Sequence record: OZ035775.1
Source of the DNA: Sashavirus BDX09P1
Length of the DNA: 58,371 nucleotides
Direction: 5' to 3' (one strand)
In this document: positions 19,383 to 56,664 of the stretch, piece after piece
How the letters are laid out: every line of letters begins with the position of its first letter
Position numbering within the stretch: position 1 is the stretch's first letter
The notes under the pieces: generated by a model
The model's database searches: none
Told to the model about the DNA's origin: nothing
What the model saw: only the letters and a program-made list of their open reading frames with translations
Made by a program: the position numbers and the translations under genes

Positions 19383-19424
19383 CGTAAAATAATTCTTGAC
19401 GGATTACATCGACACAACTACCCT
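19383..19424 (+). promoter_or_regulatory. sigma70-like promoter P8 (conserved motif, plus orientation)
   Basis: TAAAATAATTC-TTGACG-17-TACCCT leading the structural operon. Confidence 0.5.
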
Positions 19425-39951: not shown

Positions 39952-40392
39952 TTACTCCAGTGAATAGATTGTAATTTCGCAATCAATGTTGTTCAATTTT
40001 TCATAAATCAAAGGTCTGACTACTGACCATGATAAACCACCATTTGAACAACCTAATCGTGGTAATGAAACTGAACGTATTTTAAAGTGTCTGATGACTT
40101 TTATAAGATCGTCCAAACCATATTCAATCCATTGTAATTGTGAAGGATTACACCAATGTTCTTTAGTTGGAAAATTAATAATTATCTGATTGTTTTCAGA
40201 TGTGACAAACATTTTTCCAACTTTTACACGGTGTTGTTCACAGGCTTTTCGGTACTGTTTAAAATTGTCAGGAAAGGTTCTTTTAAACGCTAATGCAATA
40301 CCTTTACCCATTACACCAACGCAATTCACGGTGTTTACTAGAGCATGTGAATTGCTTTTAAGAAGGTCCCCCGTGACTTCTATTACTGACAT
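39952..40392 (-). CDS. macro domain protein
   Basis: VNTVNCVGVMGKGIALAFK ... LPRLGCSNGGL matches macrodomain ADP-ribose-binding signature; AGGAG RBS. Confidence 0.65.
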   Translation of the reverse strand: MSVIEVTGDLLKSNSHALVNTVNCVGVMGKGIALAFKRTFPDNFKQYRKACEQHRVKVGKMFVTSENNQIIINFPTKEHWCNPSQLQWIEYGLDDLIKVIRHFKIRSVSLPRLGCSNGGLSWSVVRPLIYEKLNNIDCEITIYSLE

Positions 40393-40897
40393 AACAATAA
40401 CTCCTGTACGCTTGTCTTTTTATTTTCTGATAGTCGGAAACTTTTACAGATCTTGTTTTACATTCACCAATACGATGTGGGTCGAAAATAAACATCACCT
40501 GTGAACGGTCATTTCCTCCTGCTGGTAACCCGGTGTCAGGGTCTACAAATGCTATACGGCCTTTAAACACCCATAGTTCCGAACAATGTGTCAGTGCTTT
40601 GTGAAACCAGTCTGCAGACGTCATAGCGTTCACAAGTAATAACGAACCAGTTCCCTGATAAACAGTGGTTATTATTTTATTAACCCAGGGGGACGGATCG
40701 CTGTATGGTGGGTTACACCAGACGAATCCACCACCATTACTTTGAACAATCGAATGCCAGTCTTTATTCAGACTATCAGTGATGAACAACGAACATTTAG
40801 CGTTAGAACCATCGGTACACACATCAAGAACAAGTGGGAATTCACGAGAAACGTTATCAATAAAATCCCACGGTGTTTCCCAGTTGTCTTTAGCCAT
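40358..40897 (-). CDS. DNA N6-adenine methyltransferase (phage Dam family)
   Basis: WETPWDF ... DVCTD ... WCNPPYS motif; start at MAKDNWETP with GGAGAG RBS. Confidence 0.8.
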   Translation of the reverse strand: MAKDNWETPWDFIDNVSREFPLVLDVCTDGSNAKCSLFITDSLNKDWHSIVQSNGGGFVWCNPPYSDPSPWVNKIITTVYQGTGSLLLVNAMTSADWFHKALTHCSELWVFKGRIAFVDPDTGLPAGGNDRSQVMFIFDPHRIGECKTRSVKVSDYQKIKRQAYRSYCYVSNRSHGGPS

Positions 40898-41243
40898 GTT
40901 CCGGTACACTCTCCACGCTGTAATAAACAGGAATACCCAGACGTTCAGCTTCTGCAATTTCTGCCAGCGTACCAGACGAACGACGATAATCAGGAAGCAC
41001 CAGAACAGCGTCACAGCGGCGCATAATTTCTAACGTACCTGATAGGTAGTATTCAGGTTGTATATTGCGTAAACCGCCGTCAAAGTCCCACAATTCGGTG
41101 TTCTTGTGAGGGATAACCGGGAACCACCCCGGACGTTGTAAAGCAAGTCGTTTACCTGTCTGTTCAGCGCGCGACACGTTACGGGATGTTTTAAGCGCAC
41201 AATCAGCACGATAAGGCCCGGCAATGTAACAGAGTTTAATCAT
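40890..41243 (-). CDS. nucleoside 2-deoxyribosyltransferase-like protein
   Basis: MIKLCYIAGPY...AVLVLPDY...SSGTLAEIAEAERLGIPV pattern; 8-bp overlap with Dam. Confidence 0.45.
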   Translation of the reverse strand: MIKLCYIAGPYRADCALKTSRNVSRAEQTGKRLALQRPGWFPVIPHKNTELWDFDGGLRNIQPEYYLSGTLEIMRRCDAVLVLPDYRRSSGTLAEIAEAERLGIPVYYSVESVPEHG

Positions 41244-46852: not shown

Positions 46853-46893
46853 ACTTTAAAAGGTGTTGTGTAATCTGTCAAGAATTATTTTAC
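46853..46893 (-). promoter_or_regulatory. sigma70-like promoter P10 (conserved motif copy)
   Basis: Minus strand TGTAAAATAATTC-TTGACA-17-TAAAGT. Confidence 0.6.
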
Positions 46894-49358: not shown

Positions 49359-51713
49359 ATGAAAGGGTTACTGAACCGTAAACAGTGGGTCATGTGGCGG
49401 CTTGAGACAGTCGCCGATCGTCCAAAACCAACGAAAGTACCATACAGCCCGGTACACGGTTATAAAGCCAGTACCACTAACCCTAACGACTGGTCTGACT
49501 ATCACACCGCGTTGGGTATGGCGCAAATGTACGGTATGTCTGGTGTTGGTTTCGTATTCACAGAAAATGATCCTTATTTCTTTATTGATGTTGATAACTG
49601 TCTGGTAGATCAGGCAACAGCTACGTGGTCACCACTAGCGCATGAATTCGTAAACCGTTTTCCAAATGCTTACACTGAAGTCAGTCAGTCAGGAACAGGT
49701 TTGCATATTATCTGTGCTTATACCAGCATACCGGAAGGTTTTAACAGTCTGAACGACCAGAAAACCGGGCTGGAAATGTACTGGCGTGATCGTTTCGTCG
49801 CGATGACGCTCACGGGTAATGGTGATGTTGATATTGATTATACCCAGGGCATTCATGATTCTATTGCCCGGTATGGTCGCATCCGTTCAGACCGTTCCGC
49901 ACGCTGGACAACAGCACCCTGTGATGACTGGTCAGGCCCGGCAGACGATGATGAACTGATTAAAATGGCGTTAAATTCGTCCAGTGCTGCTTCAGTATTT
50001 GGTAATAAAGCGTCATTTGCAGATCTGTGGAATGCAAACGTTGAACGCCTGTCTGTGTCATATCCCAGCGACCAGGGAAAAGACTACAATGCATCTGCCG
50101 CTGATGCTGCCCTGTGCTCACACCTTGCGTTCTGGACCGGGAAAGATTGCGAACGTATTGAACGTCTATTTAACCGTTCCGGACTGGTTCGTGGTAAATG
50201 GACAGATCGTCAGGATTACCGTGAAAACACGATTCTGGGCGCTGTGGAACGTTGTGATACGGTTTATCGTAGTCAACCGACGCTGACACCAGAACTGATG
50301 AAAGCAGTCACACCAGCGCCTACCGTCGTTCCTAATGGTGGAACACCTGCGTACATGAGTGTGAAACCCGGTGAAGGTGCATATGGTTCAAACCACACGG
50401 TTAACGCATCCACGTTCGTTAATAACTATTATCCGAACAACACTTTGATTTTCGTCCAGCAACAGCCGTACCGGTTCAACGGTCGCGTGTGGGAACGTGT
50501 GAGTGAAGATGAACTGAAACATCAGATATCTATGGCAATGCTCGCCAGCGAACCAAAAGCTGACGTGATCAATGGTACGTACAAGGTTTTGTCGTATTTA
50601 TTCACACGCGCTGATCGTGAGCTTGGAACATGGCCCGGCGTTGATGTATCACACTATATTGTTTGTCAGAATGGGATACTGGATGTACATACGGGTAAAT
50701 GTGATGCACATAACCCGGACTTCTTTACGACCAGTATTTTACCGTATAGCTACGATCCGTTTGCCCGTGCGCCAGCATTTGAACAGTTTCTTAATACAAC
50801 TCTGGAAGGTGATCAGGAACGTATTGCACTGTTGCAGGAATGGCTGGGTTACATGCTTGTCAACTCGTATGACTATCAGAAAGCGATGCTGTTGATTGGT
50901 GCGCCACGTTCCGGTAAAGGTACGATTGGTCGAATCATTCAGGCACTAGTAGGTGATGAAGCGTATGCAGGGATCACACTGGAGGGTTTAGCCAGTGATG
51001 CGGTACTTGAAACTGTGCTGGATAAATCTGTACTGTTTATTGGTGATGCTCACAGTGTGTCCGGGCCTGATCGCAACCGAATTCTGGACCGTTTCAAATC
51101 TATTACAGGTTGTGATGCGATTCCGGTTAATCGTAAGTATAAAGGTGCATGGAACGGTCGTTTACCGGGACGTATGACACTGGCTGCTAACAACATCCCG
51201 GCATTTGCTGATGATTCAGGTGCAATGGCTAACCGTTTGCTGATCCTACCATTCAACATTTCGTTCCTGGGTCGTGAAGATACCACTCTGGAAGCACGAC
51301 TGATGAAAGAACTACCGGGGATCTGTAACTGGGCGATTGAAGGTTTGCAACGGTTACGTGCAAACGGACGGTTTACTGAACCAAAAGCAAGTCTGGAAGA
51401 ACGTCAGGAAATTATGGATCAACAATCACCACTTAGAAGTTTTATCAGAGATTGTTGCGAATTGGTATCTGATGGTGAGGTGCATACTGAAGAACTCTAT
51501 GGTCGTTATCGTCTCTGGAAAACACAGGAAGGTGGTCCAGCAATGACTAAAACTGCATTTAGTCGGGCATTTAAATCCACCCTTCGTGGTAAAGTGAAAA
51601 AAGACGTTGTTAATATAAATAACGTACGATTAAACGGTTTCAGGGGTATTCGTCTTCTCCCTTTTCAGTCAACAGCTAATGTAGTGCCTTTCCCACCTGC
51701 GAGTAACGGTTAG
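49359..51713 (+). CDS. primase / D5-like replicative NTPase
   Basis: 784 aa; Walker A GAPRSGKGT in C-terminal half, N-terminal primase-polymerase-sized domain. Confidence 0.75.
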   Translation: MKGLLNRKQWVMWRLETVADRPKPTKVPYSPVHGYKASTTNPNDWSDYHTALGMAQMYGMSGVGFVFTENDPYFFIDVDNCLVDQATATWSPLAHEFVNRFPNAYTEVSQSGTGLHIICAYTSIPEGFNSLNDQKTGLEMYWRDRFVAMTLTGNGDVDIDYTQGIHDSIARYGRIRSDRSARWTTAPCDDWSGPADDDELIKMALNSSSAASVFGNKASFADLWNANVERLSVSYPSDQGKDYNASAADAALCSHLAFWTGKDCERIERLFNRSGLVRGKWTDRQDYRENTILGAVERCDTVYRSQPTLTPELMKAVTPAPTVVPNGGTPAYMSVKPGEGAYGSNHTVNASTFVNNYYPNNTLIFVQQQPYRFNGRVWERVSEDELKHQISMAMLASEPKADVINGTYKVLSYLFTRADRELGTWPGVDVSHYIVCQNGILDVHTGKCDAHNPDFFTTSILPYSYDPFARAPAFEQFLNTTLEGDQERIALLQEWLGYMLVNSYDYQKAMLLIGAPRSGKGTIGRIIQALVGDEAYAGITLEGLASDAVLETVLDKSVLFIGDAHSVSGPDRNRILDRFKSITGCDAIPVNRKYKGAWNGRLPGRMTLAANNIPAFADDSGAMANRLLILPFNISFLGREDTTLEARLMKELPGICNWAIEGLQRLRANGRFTEPKASLEERQEIMDQQSPLRSFIRDCCELVSDGEVHTEELYGRYRLWKTQEGGPAMTKTAFSRAFKSTLRGKVKKDVVNINNVRLNGFRGIRLLPFQSTANVVPFPPASNG

Positions 51714-51730
51714 TCATTGCACAAGGATGT

Positions 51731-51772
51731 GTAAAATAATTCTTGACGAATTACAGATGTGTGCGCTATAGT
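51731..51772 (+). promoter_or_regulatory. sigma70-like promoter P12 (conserved motif, plus orientation)
   Basis: TAAAATAATTC-TTGACG-18-TATAGT. Confidence 0.65.
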
Positions 51773-51803
51773 CTGTACATCAAGTGAACAAGGAGTGATT
51801 GTT

Positions 51804-52016
51804 ATGAAACCACGCTACCGGTTAATGAGACTTTCACAGTGTCCTAACGGAACACGGTTTTATTTTTATCGTCTGAAGCAACTATTACCTTTCACGTTAA
51901 TTGCTAACAGCTTCAAGAAACACGAAAGTATTTATCATGAAGGTCACGATTTTAACATAACCGCGCGAAAATACAGAACGTCTATTCATAAATTTGTATG
52001 GGCTAAGGTGAACTAA
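51804..52016 (+). CDS. hypothetical protein
   Basis: AGGAG RBS 8 bp before ATG. Confidence 0.4.
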   Translation: MKPRYRLMRLSQCPNGTRFYFYRLKQLLPFTLIANSFKKHESIYHEGHDFNITARKYRTSIHKFVWAKVN

Positions 52017-52017
52017 A

Positions 52018-52293
52018 ATGAAAATTGTCGATGCAGAATTTAGTTACATTGGTGATTTTAAAAATGGTTGTGAAATTAAGTCACCGTGTGAAGTTGTGTA
52101 TTATAACCGTAATCATTATAAATGGTGTGGTGATTTCCCAAAAATAGTCCCTGCTGGTTCAAGTCCTATTGTAACTGGTGGTATTGGTAAAAACGGATGG
52201 GTACCAATTACAACAAACAACGATGTGCGTAACGTCTGGTTACCACAGGTTATTTTAATTGGTATTTGTTTGCTTGTTTTATTTTTATGGTGA
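52018..52293 (+). CDS. hypothetical protein with C-terminal TM
   Basis: Track ORF; C-terminal VILIGICLLVLFLW. Confidence 0.4.
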   Translation: MKIVDAEFSYIGDFKNGCEIKSPCEVVYYNRNHYKWCGDFPKIVPAGSSPIVTGGIGKNGWVPITTNNDVRNVWLPQVILIGICLLVLFLW

Positions 52294-52354
52294 ACTAATT
52301 CTGGGTATGGTCTATGTCAAAATTCTATCCTGAATACAGGAAAGGTAAAAAACC

Positions 52355-52552
52355 ATGAAAAACATATTTGACCGTTTAATTACTGTTATTGTTTTCCTTG
52401 TATCAGTAACGCTCGCGTCTTGCATTGTCGGACTAATGACCCGTGGTAATCATGCGGAAACACCGTGGTGGTTTCTGGCTGGTCTTGGATTATTAGCGGC
52501 TGCTGCATCAATTGGCGCTTGCATGTGGGGAGTGAAAAATGATCATGACTGA
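52355..52552 (+). CDS. small membrane protein
   Basis: Two hydrophobic segments. Confidence 0.4.
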   Translation: MKNIFDRLITVIVFLVSVTLASCIVGLMTRGNHAETPWWFLAGLGLLAAAASIGACMWGVKNDHD

Positions 52553-52760
52553 GTTCGGTGCTGTAATCAAAAAAGAAGACCGTTATGCACATATTAATAC
52601 CCGGATTACCTGGGTTGATATCAGTGAAGCTACTCTGTTCAGTTCAACTTACATGGCTGGTGTTGCACTTAAAGCACTTCGTGATCAAGGTTTCAATTGC
52701 AGAAAAGTAACAATTGCGCCTGTTAAAATCACGCGGATCGTCGAGGAGACAGAAGGATGA
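52539..52760 (+). CDS. hypothetical protein
   Basis: Track ORF. Confidence 0.35.
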   Translation: MIMTEFGAVIKKEDRYAHINTRITWVDISEATLFSSTYMAGVALKALRDQGFNCRKVTIAPVKITRIVEETEG

Positions 52761-53437
52761 AAATTGTCTGGTCATTATTCGACGGTTCCGGGATTATGGG
52801 CTTACCGTGGGCGATACATGGATATCAGGTTTATTGTTTTAATGCTGATTCTGCTAATCACGGGGAATACTTTATTAAAGCTGATCACCCCAATCTTCAT
52901 TACGTTAATCAATGGATTGATCCACAGTTTGCAATTAAGCAGGAAATACTGGGAACACCTTTACCGTCAATTATTTTCGGCTTCCCGGATTGCACCCTGT
53001 TTGCTCAAAGCGGTTCGCAACATGACCGGGATGACGCTGAACTACAGTATGCACTGGCAAACGCAAAACTGATCCGTGAACTCGGAGAACGTTATAACGT
53101 ACCCTGGATGATCGAAAACCCTGTCGGTGCTTTATCACGTCCTGAAATGATGGGGACACCTGACGCTTATTTTCATCCGTGGGAATATGGCGGTTATATG
53201 ACAACAGATGATAAACCTTTTCACCCTAAAATGCCGATGTTTGACGGATACACGAAGAAAACATGTCTGTGGTTCGGTAACGGTTTCAGAATGCCTGAAA
53301 AACGTCCCGGACCGATTAATATTGGTTTCTTCTGGGGCTGGAAATATCTGGGTGGTAAATCTGAAACAACTAAACAGTTACGTTCATTAACCCCGCGTGG
53401 CTTTGCTCGCGCTGTATTTGAGGCTAATAAACAATGA
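52757..53437 (+). CDS. compact C5-cytosine methyltransferase-like protein
   Basis: Motif I-like LFDGSGIMG, motif IV-like GFPDCTLFAQSG (Cys retained, PCQ replaced by DCT), motif VI-like IENPVG, motif IX-like RSLTPRGFARAV; only 226 aa so little or no target-recognition domain. Confidence 0.5.
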   Translation: MKIVWSLFDGSGIMGLPWAIHGYQVYCFNADSANHGEYFIKADHPNLHYVNQWIDPQFAIKQEILGTPLPSIIFGFPDCTLFAQSGSQHDRDDAELQYALANAKLIRELGERYNVPWMIENPVGALSRPEMMGTPDAYFHPWEYGGYMTTDDKPFHPKMPMFDGYTKKTCLWFGNGFRMPEKRPGPINIGFFWGWKYLGGKSETTKQLRSLTPRGFARAVFEANKQ

Positions 53438-53829
53438 TAATAGTCGTTACAGGCGGTCGTGACTTCAACGACAGAACAGCGGTATTTTCAGCATTAGGGT
53501 TACTTCACAAACAATTCCCGGTTACCGAACTGATTGAAGGCGGTGCATCAGGTGTTGATAACCTGTGTAAGCAATGGGCGCAATTACACGGTATTCCTGT
53601 CCGCAGTTGTCCAGCAGCGTGGAACGATCTGACAGTGCCGGGTGCAGTAGTCAAACAAGGTAAGAACGGGCCTTATAACGCTGTTGCAGGTCATCAACGT
53701 AATCAGGCGATGTTAGAGGGTGAGCCACGTCCTACATATGGTGTTGTGTTCCCCGGTGGTCGTGGTACTGCTGATATGCACCGTCGCATGTTGAAAGCTG
53801 GTTTAACTGTGTGGGTTCCATATGGTTGA
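53434..53829 (+). CDS. SLOG/DUF2493-like protein
   Basis: N-terminal IIVVTGGRDF and GGASGVD pattern. Confidence 0.45.
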   Translation: MIIVVTGGRDFNDRTAVFSALGLLHKQFPVTELIEGGASGVDNLCKQWAQLHGIPVRSCPAAWNDLTVPGAVVKQGKNGPYNAVAGHQRNQAMLEGEPRPTYGVVFPGGRGTADMHRRMLKAGLTVWVPYG

Positions 53830-54184
53830 TGCGTATCATATTACTAAAGTGGAAAACCGTGAAAGTATCCTGATGAAAGGTATCGTACCGGGGATAAAAC
53901 TTCTTCGTGGTGATCTTGATTTTCAACGTGGGTTAGGTGTTCCCATCCGTTCCTGTGGTTATGATAAGTTATACGGTTTTCACCCCGTGTTCATTACCTT
54001 TAATCCTGTTGAGGCTATATCAATAATGGGTTATCGTGGTTCTGCTGATGAATGGTGTGTTGCTGTTATAAACGCTACTAATTTACAACATAAACCCGGT
54101 CGTTTTTCGTGGGAGTCAATCACTGATTATGTACCTGCTGATTGTATAAAACGTTTCGAACCGCTGACCAACTTCTTAAAATAA
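53822..54184 (+). CDS. hypothetical protein
   Basis: Track ORF. Confidence 0.4.
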   Translation: MVDAYHITKVENRESILMKGIVPGIKLLRGDLDFQRGLGVPIRSCGYDKLYGFHPVFITFNPVEAISIMGYRGSADEWCVAVINATNLQHKPGRFSWESITDYVPADCIKRFEPLTNFLK

Positions 54185-54217
54185 TTCTTGACAGATTACC
54201 AACCTTCTCCGATAATT
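54176..54217 (+). promoter_or_regulatory. sigma70-like promoter P13 (conserved motif, plus orientation)
   Basis: TAAAATAATTC-TTGACA-17/18-GATAAT. Confidence 0.6.
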
Positions 54218-54250
54218 AGCCTCAGTTAACACACATGGGGCTAAACACAA

Positions 54251-55018
54251 ATGGCTAACATTAACTCCCTTCGCAAGCTATCTGATACCGATAAAACCAA
54301 CGTAAAACGTGGTAACGCGTATCGTATTGATCCGCGTATCATCAAGATTCGCCCAGGACATAACCCACGCGGTGTATTTACCGACAACTACTGGGAAACC
54401 GAAGCAGCACTGGCACACATTGAAAACTTTCGTCAGGCTTATACTAACGGTGATTTCGTTCCACCGATCGTGGTACAGGTTGTTGACGGTGTTCCGTATG
54501 TCCAGGATGGTGAGCATCGTTTACGTGGCGTGTTAGCAGCTATTGAAGCCGGGACGCCGATTCTGACAGTAGACGTTGTTGAATCGTCCGGTGACGAACT
54601 ACAACAGACCCTGACACTATTAAAAGGTAATGAGGGTAAACCGTGGTCACCCGTTGAACGTGCTGTTATTTACGGTCGTTTCCGTTCATACGGCATGAGT
54701 GTTGAGCAGATCGCTACACAGGTCGGTAAAACCGTCCAACACGTTTACGAACAACTGAATATTCTTGATATGCCACTGGAACTTAAACGTCGTATTCAGA
54801 ACGGTGAAATCAGCGCATCAGCAGCCATTCGCCAGTTTAAAGCAGGTGATAAAGAACCAGTAGTAACGCGTCGTCCGCCTGCTAAACTGGTACGGTCCGC
54901 AGTGGAAGCAATCCGTGGTGAATGGTCTGTAACCCGTTCGGAAGGTGGTAAAGTCCTGGTTGAACTTACCGCTGAACAGTTTGAAGCGTTAAAAGCACTG
55001 AAGGAGCACCAGTTATGA
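54251..55018 (+). CDS. ParB-like nuclease-domain protein
   Basis: ParB N-terminal signature VQDGEHRLRGVLAA (GERRxRA-like). Confidence 0.65.
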   Translation: MANINSLRKLSDTDKTNVKRGNAYRIDPRIIKIRPGHNPRGVFTDNYWETEAALAHIENFRQAYTNGDFVPPIVVQVVDGVPYVQDGEHRLRGVLAAIEAGTPILTVDVVESSGDELQQTLTLLKGNEGKPWSPVERAVIYGRFRSYGMSVEQIATQVGKTVQHVYEQLNILDMPLELKRRIQNGEISASAAIRQFKAGDKEPVVTRRPPAKLVRSAVEAIRGEWSVTRSEGGKVLVELTAEQFEALKALKEHQL

Positions 55019-55203
55019 AAAACCGTAAAGCAAAGATTCTGTTAGTTCGTAGAAACGGTCCCGGCGTCTGGCAGTGGGTGAGACTCAGCAATCGACGAAT
55101 GGGGTTAATGAAATATTACGGGATGATGGTTGGTGGTTTTTGCAAAAAGCCCAGCGCGGCGCAAAACCGCTGGAAAAACCACCTGCGTACTAAAGGAGAC
55201 TAG
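55015..55203 (+). CDS. hypothetical basic protein
   Basis: Track ORF. Confidence 0.35.
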   Translation: MKNRKAKILLVRRNGPGVWQWVRLSNRRMGLMKYYGMMVGGFCKKPSAAQNRWKNHLRTKGD

Positions 55204-55364
55204 TTTATGTCAGACAACTTAACATCAATTTACGGTACGTTGACCTGTCGTTCTAAATTTAAACCGTTGACAAAAGAAGAAGAACGTCAGTGTAAGTTCA
55301 ATAACAGTTTTCCCAGCGTTAATGAAAATCGTTGGATTGCCAAACTAACCGGGAGTAAGAAGAA

Positions 55365-55589
55365 ATGACTATCCGACTGATGAATCCAACCGTTGCCCGT
55401 GATATTAAACCAGGTGACAAGATTGAAGTATTTAACGAATGGTACTGGGTACGCTATATCAATTACCACGGGTCACAGATTACGCTTCGTTTACAACCGG
55501 AAGACGAACCGCTATCACCATTTTGCGAAAACGACCGCGTTGTGGTTACAGTACCAGAAGATCTAATGATTGATGTCGAATGTAACTAA
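55365..55589 (+). CDS. hypothetical protein
   Basis: Track ORF. Confidence 0.4.
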   Translation: MTIRLMNPTVARDIKPGDKIEVFNEWYWVRYINYHGSQITLRLQPEDEPLSPFCENDRVVVTVPEDLMIDVECN

Positions 55590-55833
55590 CAGGTTCCCTC
55601 GTAACGGTTTAAAATGGTCCGCACGAGATCTGGCGTTATTAAAAATTAATGCAGGAAAGATCAGTGCGGATGAAATAGCGTATTACCTTCGCCGGGACGT
55701 TGAAGCGGTGCACATTAAAGCGTCACGTCTCGGTATATCACTGGTAACCAATAAATGTAAACGTGGTCATGCGCGAGTTTACCAAAAAGGTAGATGGCGC
55801 TGTCCTGAGTGTAGAAAATTAAAAGGGTATTGA
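55570..55833 (+). CDS. hypothetical protein with C-terminal CxxC pair
   Basis: Track ORF; RWRCPECRK. Confidence 0.4.
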   Translation: MMSNVTNRFPRNGLKWSARDLALLKINAGKISADEIAYYLRRDVEAVHIKASRLGISLVTNKCKRGHARVYQKGRWRCPECRKLKGY

Positions 55834-55835
55834 AT

Positions 55836-56407
55836 ATGACACCTGAACAATTCGCAACAGCAGCACACGGTGATCAACTTCGTAAGTACACCAATGACCC
55901 ATATGTTAACCACTGCCGGAACGTTGCTGAACTGGTTAAACGCTATGGTGGTACGCCGGATATGGTTACCGCTGCCTGGCTGTGCATGACGTCGTTGAAG
56001 ATACTCCCGTGACTGTGGGTGATGTGTGTTCGCAATTCGGTGAAACTGTGGCACGTTATGTTGATCAGCTTACTGATGTGAGTCGTCCACACCACGGCAA
56101 CCGCGTTAAGCGTAAAGCACGGGACATCGACCATTTATCACGGGCTGAACCTGTGGTAAAAACCATAAAACTGTGTGATCTGCTGGATAACACCTCTTCA
56201 ATTGTCCGACACGATCCGAAGTTTGCTGTAACATACCTGGCTGAAAAACAAATCATGCTTGTTCACCTGTCAGACGCCAGTAATCAGGAGTTATACGCGC
56301 TTGTTGAGCGTGAATTGTTTAAAGCCAAATACAAACTAACGAACGTCCAGTTAACCGCGTTTGACAAACACTACGACGCACTGGTTAAAGCGATGGGGGA
56401 GTTGTGA
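55836..56407 (+). pseudogene. HD-domain (p)ppGpp-hydrolase-like gene interrupted by a frameshift
   Basis: Frame 1 gives ...AAHGDQ...PDMVTAAWL then stops; HD signature HDVVEDT continues in another frame from ~55985; two extra nt (TG) at ~55983-55984 split the conserved AAWL-HDVVEDT. Confidence 0.6.
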
Positions 56408-56664
56408 TCATGAATAAAGCATCACCTGTAGAAATACGTAAATGTCTTGAAATGGCAAATAGTCTTGCACATGCCGGGATTAGATTTGTTCCTGTACCAG
56501 AAACCAGTGATGATGAATTTAATTCGCTGGTTTCTCATTCTTACGGGATACTGGACAAAATAGCAGACGATTGTGATACGACTAACCGCCAGTTCGAAAG
56601 CCTCAGCAACCACAAACATCACTTCATCAACGGCACTTGCGTAGAGTGCCTGAAAAGTGAATAA
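56404..56664 (+). CDS. hypothetical protein
   Basis: Track ORF. Confidence 0.4.
   Translation: MIMNKASPVEIRKCLEMANSLAHAGIRFVPVPETSDDEFNSLVSHSYGILDKIADDCDTTNRQFESLSNHKHHFINGTCVECLKSE

What the first reader, a model, noticed from the sequence alone, without database searches (positions are those of the whole stretch)
52757..55018. Compact C5-MTase-like protein clustered with SLOG-like and ParB-like genes
The 226-aa protein keeps C5-cytosine methyltransferase motifs I, IV (Cys retained but PCQ replaced by DCT), VI and IX, yet leaves little room for a target-recognition domain. It is followed by a SLOG/DUF2493-like protein and, after its own promoter, a ParB N-terminal-domain protein. The minimal MTase may have relaxed or unusual specificity or a non-methylating role.
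Basis: partly seen in the sequence, partly recalled or inferred. Interest (0 to 1): 0.5.

Follow-up and report, generated by a model that had tools for sequence, protein, structure and literature searches.

The report
Compact phage Dcm-like cytosine methyltransferase gene
The 226-residue protein belongs to a very common, already annotated family of unusually small phage DNA cytosine-C5 methyltransferases, one member of which has been shown to make 5-methylcytosine, and its SLOG and ParB neighbours share a phage backbone with it rather than forming a functional unit.

Summary
The window is a 9NA/Sasha-like E. coli siphophage. At 52757..53437 it encodes a 226-aa protein with C5-MTase motifs I (FDGSG), IV (P-D-C-T), VI (ENP) and IX (RSLTPRGFA). 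It has no target-recognition domain: 40 aa separate motifs VIII and IX, against 122 aa in E. coli Dcm. It also has no motif X.

The protein is not new. It belongs to phrog_757 (E 1.8e-79) and has relatives in 1,491 phage records, nearly all 215-250 aa. It is 43% identical over its full length to KarlJaspers Bas06 "Dcm-like C5 cytosine methyltransferase". A close relative of that gene (phage K42) was reported to put 5mC on retron Ec86 msDNA and trigger that defence. The reported catalytic residues C82/E128/K175/K176 align with C79/E120/K167/K168 here. dN/dS is 0.04-0.07.

The gene cluster is synteny only. 9NA has the MTase without SLOG, KarinMuster has SLOG and ParB without the MTase, and Sasha carries a 51%-identical allele. 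About 74 of 80 loci from other lineages have neither neighbour.

Sequence specificity remains unmeasured. Interest is low to moderate.

The parts
51732..51772 (+). Promoter-like site (TTGACG-18-TATAGT) preceded by the conserved phage element TAAAATAATTCTTGAC. It is the likely start of the transcription unit holding four small ORFs, the MTase, SLOG and ORF120.
   Evidence: repeat D4; 11 exact copies in the window; 15 at up to 3 mismatches vs 1.1 expected
52757..53437 (+). Compact C5-cytosine DNA methyltransferase, 226 aa (phrog_757, 'Dcm-like' phage family)
52778..52792 (+). Motif I, F8-D-G-S-G12 (AdoMet-binding loop)
52985..52996 (+). Motif IV, P77-D78-C79-T80. Cys79 is the presumed catalytic nucleophile and aligns with K42 Dcm C82 and with the M.HaeIII/DNMT2 PPCQ motif.
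53114..53122 (+). Motif VI, E120-N121-P122 (ENV equivalent; aligns with K42 Dcm E128)
53255..53260 (+). K167-K168 in the invariant Y-T-K-K-T-C-x-W strand. They stand at the position of motif VIII (QxRxR) and align with K42 Dcm K175/K176.
53297..53356 (+). Residues 181-200, the most variable and indel-prone segment after the catalytic core. It is the only candidate for a vestigial recognition loop (inference).
   Evidence: (entropy 2.6-2.75 bits; insertions after residues 189-190)
53381..53416 (+). Motif IX-like R209-S-L-T-P-R-G-F-A-R-A-V220. The protein ends 6 residues later, with no motif X.
53434..53829 (+). SLOG-superfamily protein, 131 aa (Pfam YAcAr PF10686, PHROG 289). Its start overlaps the MTase stop.
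53822..54184 (+). ORF120, a rare accessory ORF of unknown function.
54177..54216 (+). Second copy of the TAAAATAATTCTTGAC element with TTGACA-17-GATAAT (11 of 12). This is the promoter-like site for the ParB-like gene.
54251..55018 (+). ParB/Spo0J-like protein, 255 aa, with an N-terminal ParB box (GEHRLR) and an HTH

Best explanation
Gene 52757..53437 encodes an active, orphan, SAM-dependent DNA cytosine-C5 methyltransferase of the compact phage family usually annotated 'Dcm-like' (phrog_757).

It consists of the catalytic Rossmann domain only. The proposed chemistry is inferred by homology: Cys79 (motif IV) attacks C6 of a flipped-out cytosine, Glu120 (motif VI) protonates N3, Lys167/Lys168 replace the motif VIII arginines, and the FDGSG loop binds AdoMet. 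The product is 5-methylcytosine.

It is an exchangeable accessory gene, co-transcribed with small early genes, SLOG and ORF120 from a phage promoter at about 51740. Its most probable benefit is to pre-methylate phage DNA against cytosine-sensitive restriction, independently of the host's dcm status. The cost is that sensors such as retron Ec86 (Eco1) can detect it.

The SLOG and ParB-like genes are separate backbone genes of 9NA-like phages and are not partners of the enzyme.

Shown here: family membership, fold, conserved catalytic residues, absence of a TRD and motif X, purifying selection, and independence from the neighbours.

Taken from a paper: a 43%-identical homologue makes 5mC in vivo.

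Inferred: that this allele is active, what its target sequence is, and that it serves anti-restriction.
For: - Family membership: PHROG 757 'DNA methyltransferase' at E 1.8e-79 over the full length. There are 699 close homologues, 850 representative clusters and 1,491 phage records. Median length is 226 aa.
- Link to the studied enzyme: 43% identity, E 6e-59, end to end with KarlJaspers Bas06 bas06_0055. That gene is 711 bp, the same length as the K42 dcm gene of the retron paper. C82/E128/K175/K176 align with C79/E120/K167/K168.
- Experimental support from that preprint (10.1101/2023.08.16.553469): high 5mC on msDNA by LC-MS with wild-type Dcm but not with the C82A/E128A/K175A/K176A mutant, and escape mutants map to dcm.
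- Sequence bridges to canonical enzymes: the family profile hits DNMT2 and M.HaeIII across motifs I-IV. Six of 96 family members reach Pfam PF00145.
- Selection: dN/dS 0.04-0.07.
- Cassette behaviour.
Against: - No methylation data exist for this allele or this phage.
- The window protein gets no hit from Pfam, NCBIfam or PDB sequence searches.
- The Pro of the canonical Pro-Cys dipeptide is Asp in this clade, the motif VIII arginines are lysines, and motif X is missing. Activity could therefore be weaker or different.
- The BASEL authors found no simple link between methyltransferase genes and restriction resistance in Drexlerviridae (PMC8594841), so the anti-restriction benefit is unproven.
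- The window still strongly avoids several 6-bp palindromes, so methylation is clearly not a blanket protection.
Confidence: 0.75

Rival explanations
1. The enzyme is active but, lacking a TRD, has a very short or relaxed specificity, or prefers single-stranded or hairpin DNA or RNA (as DNMT2 does with tRNA), rather than a defined duplex site such as CCWGG.
For: - Only 40 aa separate motifs VIII and IX, and there is no homology to the Dcm TRD. hhalign against E. coli Dcm covers motifs I-VI only, at 15% identity.
- The best PDB sequence hit of the family profile is DNMT2, at E 0.009.
- The one demonstrated substrate of a homologue is retron msDNA, a single-stranded DNA hairpin. msDNA from MG1655 carrying an empty vector had low 5mC despite its CCTGG site, so the phage enzyme did something the host enzyme had not done. 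That MG1655 is dcm+ is my own knowledge.
- The CCWGG specificity was assumed by analogy, not mapped.
Against: - Expressing K42 Dcm in MG1655 without the retron caused no growth defect. MG1655 carries McrBC (my own knowledge), which should cut a chromosome methylated promiscuously in purine-C contexts.
- Mutating either C of the single CCTGG site in msDNA abolished defence.
- Residues 121-180 are highly conserved across the family, which suggests a defined, shared substrate-binding surface.
Confidence: 0.15
2. MTase, SLOG and ParB form one functional module. For example, it could be a DNA-modification or partition-linked system in which ParB targets DNA and SLOG processes a nucleotide.
For: - The genes are adjacent on the same strand, with overlapping stop and start codons between MTase and SLOG and between SLOG and ORF120.
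- The arrangement recurs in PDP46, Sasha and some metagenomic relatives.
Against: - 9NA has the MTase (91% identical) and ParB but no SLOG.
- KarinMuster has SLOG (96% identical) and ParB but no MTase.
- Sasha has a 51%-identical MTase allele next to a 95%-identical SLOG.
- Of 80 viral-contig loci with an MTase homologue, only the 5 9NA-like ones have SLOG within 5 kb.
- Neighbours elsewhere are helicases, a Dam-like MTase, a DNA polymerase and others.
- ParB has its own promoter-like element.
Confidence: 0.04
3. The protein is a catalytically dead pseudo-enzyme, for example an AdoMet- or DNA-binding decoy, because the Pro-Cys dipeptide, the motif VIII arginines and motif X have been lost.
For: PDCT replaces PPCQ, TKKT replaces QxRxR, and there is no GNxV motif. 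There is no Pfam hit.
Against: - Cys79 is invariant. Glu120, Asn121 and Thr80 are at least 90% conserved, and Lys167 is invariant, in 96 sequences down to 30% identity.
- The TKKT and motif-X-less architecture is shared with the K42/Bas06 enzyme, which is reported to be active.
- The Asp variant dominates a large clade (89 of 120 clusters) under dN/dS of about 0.05.
Confidence: 0.05

Closest known systems
Phage K42 / KarlJaspers (Bas06) 'Dcm-like C5 cytosine methyltransferase', the trigger of retron Ec86/Eco1 (bioRxiv 10.1101/2023.08.16.553469)
   Same: Same family (phrog_757) and same compact, co-linear architecture: 236 vs 226 aa, 43% identity, E 6e-59. The reported catalytic and substrate-binding residues are conserved. 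The same TKKT/FKKT strand and the same C-terminal RSLTPRGFARAVFEAN motif are present.
   Different: Motif IV is PPCT in K42/Bas06 and PDCT here. There are indels in residues 181-196, the candidate recognition loop. The genomic context differs (Drexlerviridae, next to a helicase, with no SLOG or ParB). No experiment has been done on the 9NA-like allele.
Canonical bacterial type II C5-MTases (Pfam PF00145: M.HhaI, M.HaeIII, prophage CP-933R MTase 3g7u)
   Different: About 100 residues shorter. There is no TRD or small domain and no motif X. PCQ becomes DCT, ENV becomes ENP and RxR becomes KK. The protein scores below Pfam detection.
DNMT3A/DNMT3B catalytic domains
   Different: 12-14% identity. 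DNMT3 still has a TRD loop and motif X and works in DNMT3L-containing tetramers. Whether the phage enzyme oligomerises was not tested.
E. coli Dcm (CCWGG), from which the family takes its annotation name
   Same: Motifs I, IV, VI and IX are recognisable.
   Different: Only 15% identity over motifs I-VI. The Dcm TRD (122 aa between motifs VIII and IX), its N-terminal extension and motif X are absent. There is no overlapping vsr gene; the downstream gene is SLOG. The label 'Dcm-like' therefore does not establish CCWGG specificity.

Membership tests
DNA cytosine-C5 methyltransferase superfamily (PF00145-type) | Motif I, FxGxG AdoMet loop | tested here: met
   F8-D-G-S-G12. It aligns with M.HaeIII, DNMT2 and E. 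coli Dcm FAGIGG.
DNA cytosine-C5 methyltransferase superfamily (PF00145-type) | Motif IV Pro-Cys with the catalytic cysteine | tested here: inconclusive
   Cys79 is invariant in 96 relatives and aligns with the PPCQ cysteine. The preceding Pro is Asp here. Across the family it is Pro (83 diverse clusters) or Asp (89 of 120 close clusters), and Gln is replaced by Thr.
DNA cytosine-C5 methyltransferase superfamily (PF00145-type) | Motif VI, ENV | tested here: met
   E120-N121-P122. ENP occurs in 165 of 176 family members.
DNA cytosine-C5 methyltransferase superfamily (PF00145-type) | Motif VIII, QxRxR | tested here: not met
   The equivalent strand reads Y-T-K167-K168-T. Lys167 is invariant.
DNA cytosine-C5 methyltransferase superfamily (PF00145-type) | Target-recognition (small) domain between motifs VIII and IX | tested here: not met
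   40 residues here against 122 in E. coli Dcm. The AF2 model shows only a loop and two short helices there.
DNA cytosine-C5 methyltransferase superfamily (PF00145-type) | Motif IX (RxLTPRExARLxGF) and motif X (GNxV helix) | tested here: inconclusive
   Motif IX is present: RSLTPRGFARAV, 10 of 16 identical to Dcm, E 0.019 in a single comparison. Motif X is absent, as the protein ends 6 residues later. Whether the C-terminal helix 214-224 takes the structural place of motif X was not resolved.
DNA cytosine-C5 methyltransferase superfamily (PF00145-type) | Passes the Pfam PF00145 gathering threshold | tested here: not met
   No hit at E<=0.1 for the window protein. Six of 96 family members hit at E<=0.01; the best, P0100, scores 27.3 bits against a cut-off of 22.
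DNA cytosine-C5 methyltransferase superfamily (PF00145-type) | C5-MTase catalytic-domain fold | tested here: met
   [not shown]
DNA cytosine-C5 methyltransferase superfamily (PF00145-type) | Forms 5-methylcytosine in DNA | not testable with these tools
   Reported for the 43%-identical K42 homologue by LC-MS, not for this protein.
Compact phage 'Dcm-like' MTase family (phrog_757; K42/Bas06 Dcm) | Full-length profile match and co-linear alignment with the characterised member, including C/E/KK residues | tested here: met
   phrog_757 at E 1.8e-79, residues 1-225. Bas06 at 43%, E 6e-59, residues 3-226 vs 5-236, with C82/E128/K175/K176 aligned to C79/E120/K167/K168.
Compact phage 'Dcm-like' MTase family (phrog_757; K42/Bas06 Dcm) | Single-domain length of about 215-250 aa | tested here: met
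   Median 226 aa. Only 7 of 176 motif-complete members exceed 260 aa.
Compact phage 'Dcm-like' MTase family (phrog_757; K42/Bas06 Dcm) | Activates retron Ec86/Eco1 | not testable with these tools
   Needs an in vivo assay.
E. coli Dcm orthologues (CCWGG-specific, vsr-linked) | Homologous TRD and an overlapping vsr gene | tested here: not met
   hhalign covers motifs I-VI only, at 15% identity. The TRD is absent. The downstream overlapping gene is SLOG, not Vsr.
SLOG superfamily, YAcAr/YspA-related (PF10686, ex-DUF2493), for ORF 53434..53829 | Pfam model above the gathering threshold | tested here: met
   70.5 bits against a cut-off of 28.2, E 1e-19, residues 1-64. PHROG 289 at E 2.7e-23.
ParB/Spo0J family, for ORF 54251..55018 | N-terminal ParB box (GERRxR) plus HTH | tested here: met
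   Spo0J 1vz0 at E 3e-07 over residues 69-192, with GEHRLR aligned to GERRYR. HTH_ParB at 28.9 bits against a cut-off of 22.6. TIGR00180 is below its cut-off, 37.2 vs 58.45.
ParB/Spo0J family, for ORF 54251..55018 | Partner ParA ATPase and parS sites (a true partition system) | not tested
   No obvious parS-like inverted repeat turned up near the gene in the repeat scan. ParA was not searched for.

The most novel reading that the evidence does not exclude
This family is a minimal architecture for sequence-specific DNA C5-methylation. The catalytic domain lacks both the TRD and motif X, and reads its target through the roughly 20-residue variable loop (residues 181-200), through homo-oligomerisation as in DNMT3, or both. 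The 51%-identical alleles swapped into otherwise 95%-identical 9NA-like backbones would then differ in specificity or in visibility to methylation-sensing defences such as retron Ec86.
Probability: 0.3. Interest if true: 0.55.

Novelty: already known. Interest (0 to 1): 0.27.

Why it matters
For this window it matters little. The gene is 99% identical to an annotated 'cytosine specific methyltransferase' of phage PDP46. It belongs to a family present in about 1,500 sequenced phages, one member of which already has an experimentally assigned activity and a known role as a retron trigger.

The useful outcomes of this check are these:
- The MTase-SLOG-ParB 'cluster' should not be read as a system.
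- The label 'Dcm-like' does not justify assuming CCWGG specificity, because no Dcm-type recognition domain is present.
- The family is almost invisible to Pfam and NCBIfam. Only 6 of 96 members hit PF00145, so automated pipelines that rely on those libraries will miss it.

How a 226-aa enzyme with no TRD and no motif X selects its target is still unresolved. It could be settled cheaply with methylome mapping, and it bears on phage anti-restriction and on how defences sense phage methyltransferases.

Tried and rejected

2. CCWGG statistics as a clue to specificity. There are 91 sites against 60.7 +/- 7.6 expected from dinucleotide shuffles. A maximal-order Markov model gives observed/expected of 0.64-0.71 instead. 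The two baselines disagree, so no inference is drawn.

3. A locus search with the diverse alignment A2 failed because it has no conserved 7-10 column stretch. It was repeated with A1, so the 80 loci are biased towards relatives of at least 50% identity.

4. Longer family members (292-401 aa) were checked for fused recognition or Dam domains. None has a Pfam domain in its extension.

5. The SLOG protein against PDB sequences gave no meaningful hit.

6. The 9NA genomics paper (PMC6819911) is not held. The published Cell Reports version of the retron Ec86 study is cited by others but is also not held, so only the preprint was read.

7. A literature search for a description of TRD-less phage C5-MTases found nothing specific.

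8. An Rfam scan of 51500-56500 gave no RNA family.

9. KarinMuster's reported sensitivity to restriction systems (PMC11990801) cannot be used as evidence about the MTase, because that phage lacks the gene.
Full report
**What the window is.** The region matches Escherichia phage PDP46 at 96.5% nucleotide identity. It also matches other 9NA/Sasha-like siphophages: AVIO78A, KarinMuster Bas82, Sasha, Sergei and 9NA. The finding lies in the early/replication arm, downstream of an NrS-1-type primase (49359..51713).

**Check of the observation.**
- All three ORFs are at the stated coordinates.
- The 226-aa protein has F8-D-G-S-G12 (motif I), P77-D78-C79-T80 (motif IV), E120-N121-P122 (motif VI) and R209-S-L-T-P-R-G-F-A-R (motif IX).
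- In an alignment of 96 relatives reaching 30% identity, C79, P122, K167 and five other residues are invariant. F76, P77, T80, E120, N121, R209, S210, T212 and P213 are at least 90% conserved.
- The downstream ORF is a SLOG/YAcAr protein: PF10686, E 1e-19, above the curated cut-off.
- The ParB-like protein has the ParB box, with GEHRLR in place of GERRxR, and the HTH. It matches Spo0J 1vz0 at E 3e-07, HTH_ParB above its cut-off and PHROG 1033 at E 8.5e-60.
- The 'own promoter' is TTGACA-17-GATAAT at 54188-54216, an 11 of 12 match.
- That promoter is part of a 16-nt element, TAAAATAATTCTTGAC. The element has 11 exact copies in the window, and 15 copies at up to 3 mismatches against 1.1 expected. 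Another copy lies at 51732, ahead of the unit that contains the MTase.

**Is it a C5-MTase, and is the recognition domain really missing?**
- The window protein gets no hit from Pfam, NCBIfam or PDB sequence searches.
- A profile of the family does align motifs I-IV with DNMT2 (E 0.009) and M.HaeIII (E 0.044). It places C79 on their catalytic cysteine.
- Six of 96 family members reach PF00145.
- The AlphaFold2 model is confident, at pLDDT 94.5 and pTM 0.92.
- In E. coli Dcm, motif VIII (Q274HRER) and motif IX (R400RLTPRE) are 122 residues apart, and motif X (G435NSV) follows. Here the equivalent distance is 40 residues, and the protein ends 6 residues after the motif IX block, so there is no motif X.
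- The model shows only a loop and two short helices in residues 175-213.
- The compactness is therefore real. It is a family trait rather than a truncation: median length is 226 aa, and 7 of 176 members exceed 260 aa.
- The longer members carry N- or C-terminal extensions with no Pfam domain.

**The family is large and already known.**
- phrog_757 'DNA methyltransferase' matches at E 1.8e-79.
- There are 699 close homologues in the 5.8-billion-protein set.
- There are 850 clusters at 50% identity.
- tblastn finds 1,491 phage records, spanning Drexlerviridae, Webervirus, Dhillonvirus, Vequintavirinae, phi92-like and some T4-like phages.
- Many of these are annotated 'Dcm-like C5 cytosine methyltransferase' or 'C-5 cytosine-specific DNA methylase'. 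PDP46 carries a 99%-identical copy annotated 'cytosine specific methyltransferase'.

**Experimental anchor.**
- A preprint on retron Ec86 (10.1101/2023.08.16.553469) isolated escape mutants of phage K42, which is 95.4% identical to KarlJaspers Bas06. All the mutations hit a 711-bp dcm gene.
- Expressing that gene arrested growth only in cells carrying the retron.
- LC-MS showed high 5mC on msDNA with the wild-type protein but not with the C82A/E128A/K175A/K176A mutant.
- I retrieved Bas06. Its bas06_0055 is 711 bp and annotated Dcm-like.
- It aligns end to end with the window protein at 43% identity, E 6e-59. C82, E128 and K175/K176 fall on C79, E120 and K167/K168.
- The Bas08 orthologue is 47% identical.
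- The window allele and its 9NA and metagenomic relatives show dN/dS of 0.04-0.07.
- A non-methylating role is therefore unlikely.

**The Asp in place of Pro.** Among diverse family representatives motif IV is P-P-C-T (83 clusters). In the window's clade it is P-D-C-T (89 of 120 clusters). Thr instead of Gln after the Cys is the family signature.

**Specificity.**
- The preprint assigns CCWGG by analogy with host Dcm. Its other support is that mutating the single CCTGG site in the msDNA stem abolished defence. No genome-wide map is given.
- The phage protein has no Dcm-type TRD. hhalign aligns it with E. coli Dcm only over motifs I-VI, at 15% identity. The name therefore carries no information about specificity.
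- Two indirect points argue against gross promiscuity. First, K42 Dcm was not toxic in MG1655 lacking the retron. That strain has McrBC (my own knowledge), which should attack a promiscuously methylated chromosome. Second, residues 121-180 are as conserved as the catalytic motifs.
- The only variable, indel-prone stretch after the core is residues 181-200. I take it as the candidate vestigial recognition loop. This is an inference.
- Site statistics for CCWGG in the window are ambiguous.

**Is MTase-SLOG-ParB a module? No.**
- PDP46 has the same order as the window.
- Sasha has a 51%-identical PPCT allele of the MTase next to a 95%-identical SLOG, then an HNH gene, then ParB.
- 9NA has a 91%-identical MTase and ParB but no SLOG.
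- KarinMuster has SLOG (96% identical) and ParB, with a 198-nt ORF where the MTase would be and no MTase remnant.
- Of 80 viral-contig loci carrying an MTase homologue, SLOG lies within 5 kb only in the five 9NA-like ones. Three others have weak ParB-like hits.
- Neighbours in other lineages include helicases, a Dam-like MTase, a DNA polymerase and structural-looking genes.
- The MTase slot thus behaves as an exchangeable accessory cassette in a conserved backbone, and ParB has its own promoter element.

**Mechanism and role.** The best-supported reading is an active orphan C5-MTase acting on DNA, expressed early. The plausible benefit is host-independent protection against cytosine-sensitive restriction, and a known liability is detection by retron Ec86. 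The anti-restriction benefit remains an inference. The BASEL authors saw no simple correlation between methyltransferase genes and restriction resistance in Drexlerviridae (PMC8594841). The window also still avoids several 6-bp palindromes strongly.

**Verdict.** The protein is a TRD-less C5-MTase homologue. It is neither a new kind of protein nor likely to be non-catalytic, and the gene cluster is synteny rather than a system. What remains open is how this minimal architecture selects its target. That question applies to the whole, already known family and not to this locus in particular.

Noticed in passing
[not shown]
   Followed up: yes
window, 11 exact copies (e.g. 1442-1457 -, 19385-19400 +, 46877-46892 -, 51732-51747 +, 54177-54192 +): The 16-nt element TAAAATAATTCTTGAC (an A/T-rich stretch plus a -35 hexamer) recurs 11 times exactly, and 15 times at up to 3 mismatches against 1.1 expected. 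It occurs on both strands and looks like a phage promoter family that defines transcription units.
   Followed up: partly
window 55830..56407 (+), around 55981-55982: The HD-domain (RelA/SpoT-like) phosphohydrolase gene is split into two overlapping frames (55830..56012 and 55982..56407). The cause is a 2-nt insertion (TG) relative to the intact 570-nt gene of PDP46. It is either a real frameshift or a sequencing error.
   Followed up: partly
window 40358..41014 (-): A second methyltransferase is present: a 218-aa Dam-type N6-adenine MTase (PF05869, E 3.7e-31, NPPY at residue 101).
   Followed up: partly
whole window: Several palindromes are strongly avoided, measured against maximal-order Markov expectation: AAGCTT 1 vs 10.8, CCCGGG 2 vs 22.2, GGTACC 1 vs 12.6, GTCGAC 1 vs 9.2 and CTAG 23 vs 59.7.
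   Followed up: no
L088 (Sasha) 1203-1904 vs window 52757..53437; L073: Two MTase alleles only about 51% identical (PPCT vs PDCT) occupy the same slot in backbones whose flanking SLOG and primase genes are 95-100% identical. This indicates cassette replacement by recombination.
   Followed up: partly
L047 3242-4498; L012 3409-4125: In other phage lineages the MTase homologue sits just downstream of a 418-aa protein that looks like a PAPS-reductase/DndC-type enzyme (judged by eye, not scanned), or of a Dam-like NPPY methyltransferase.
   Followed up: no
P0006, P0008 (about 329 aa family members): Some family members carry a roughly 100-aa N-terminal extension with no Pfam match. It could be an added DNA-binding domain.
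   Followed up: partly
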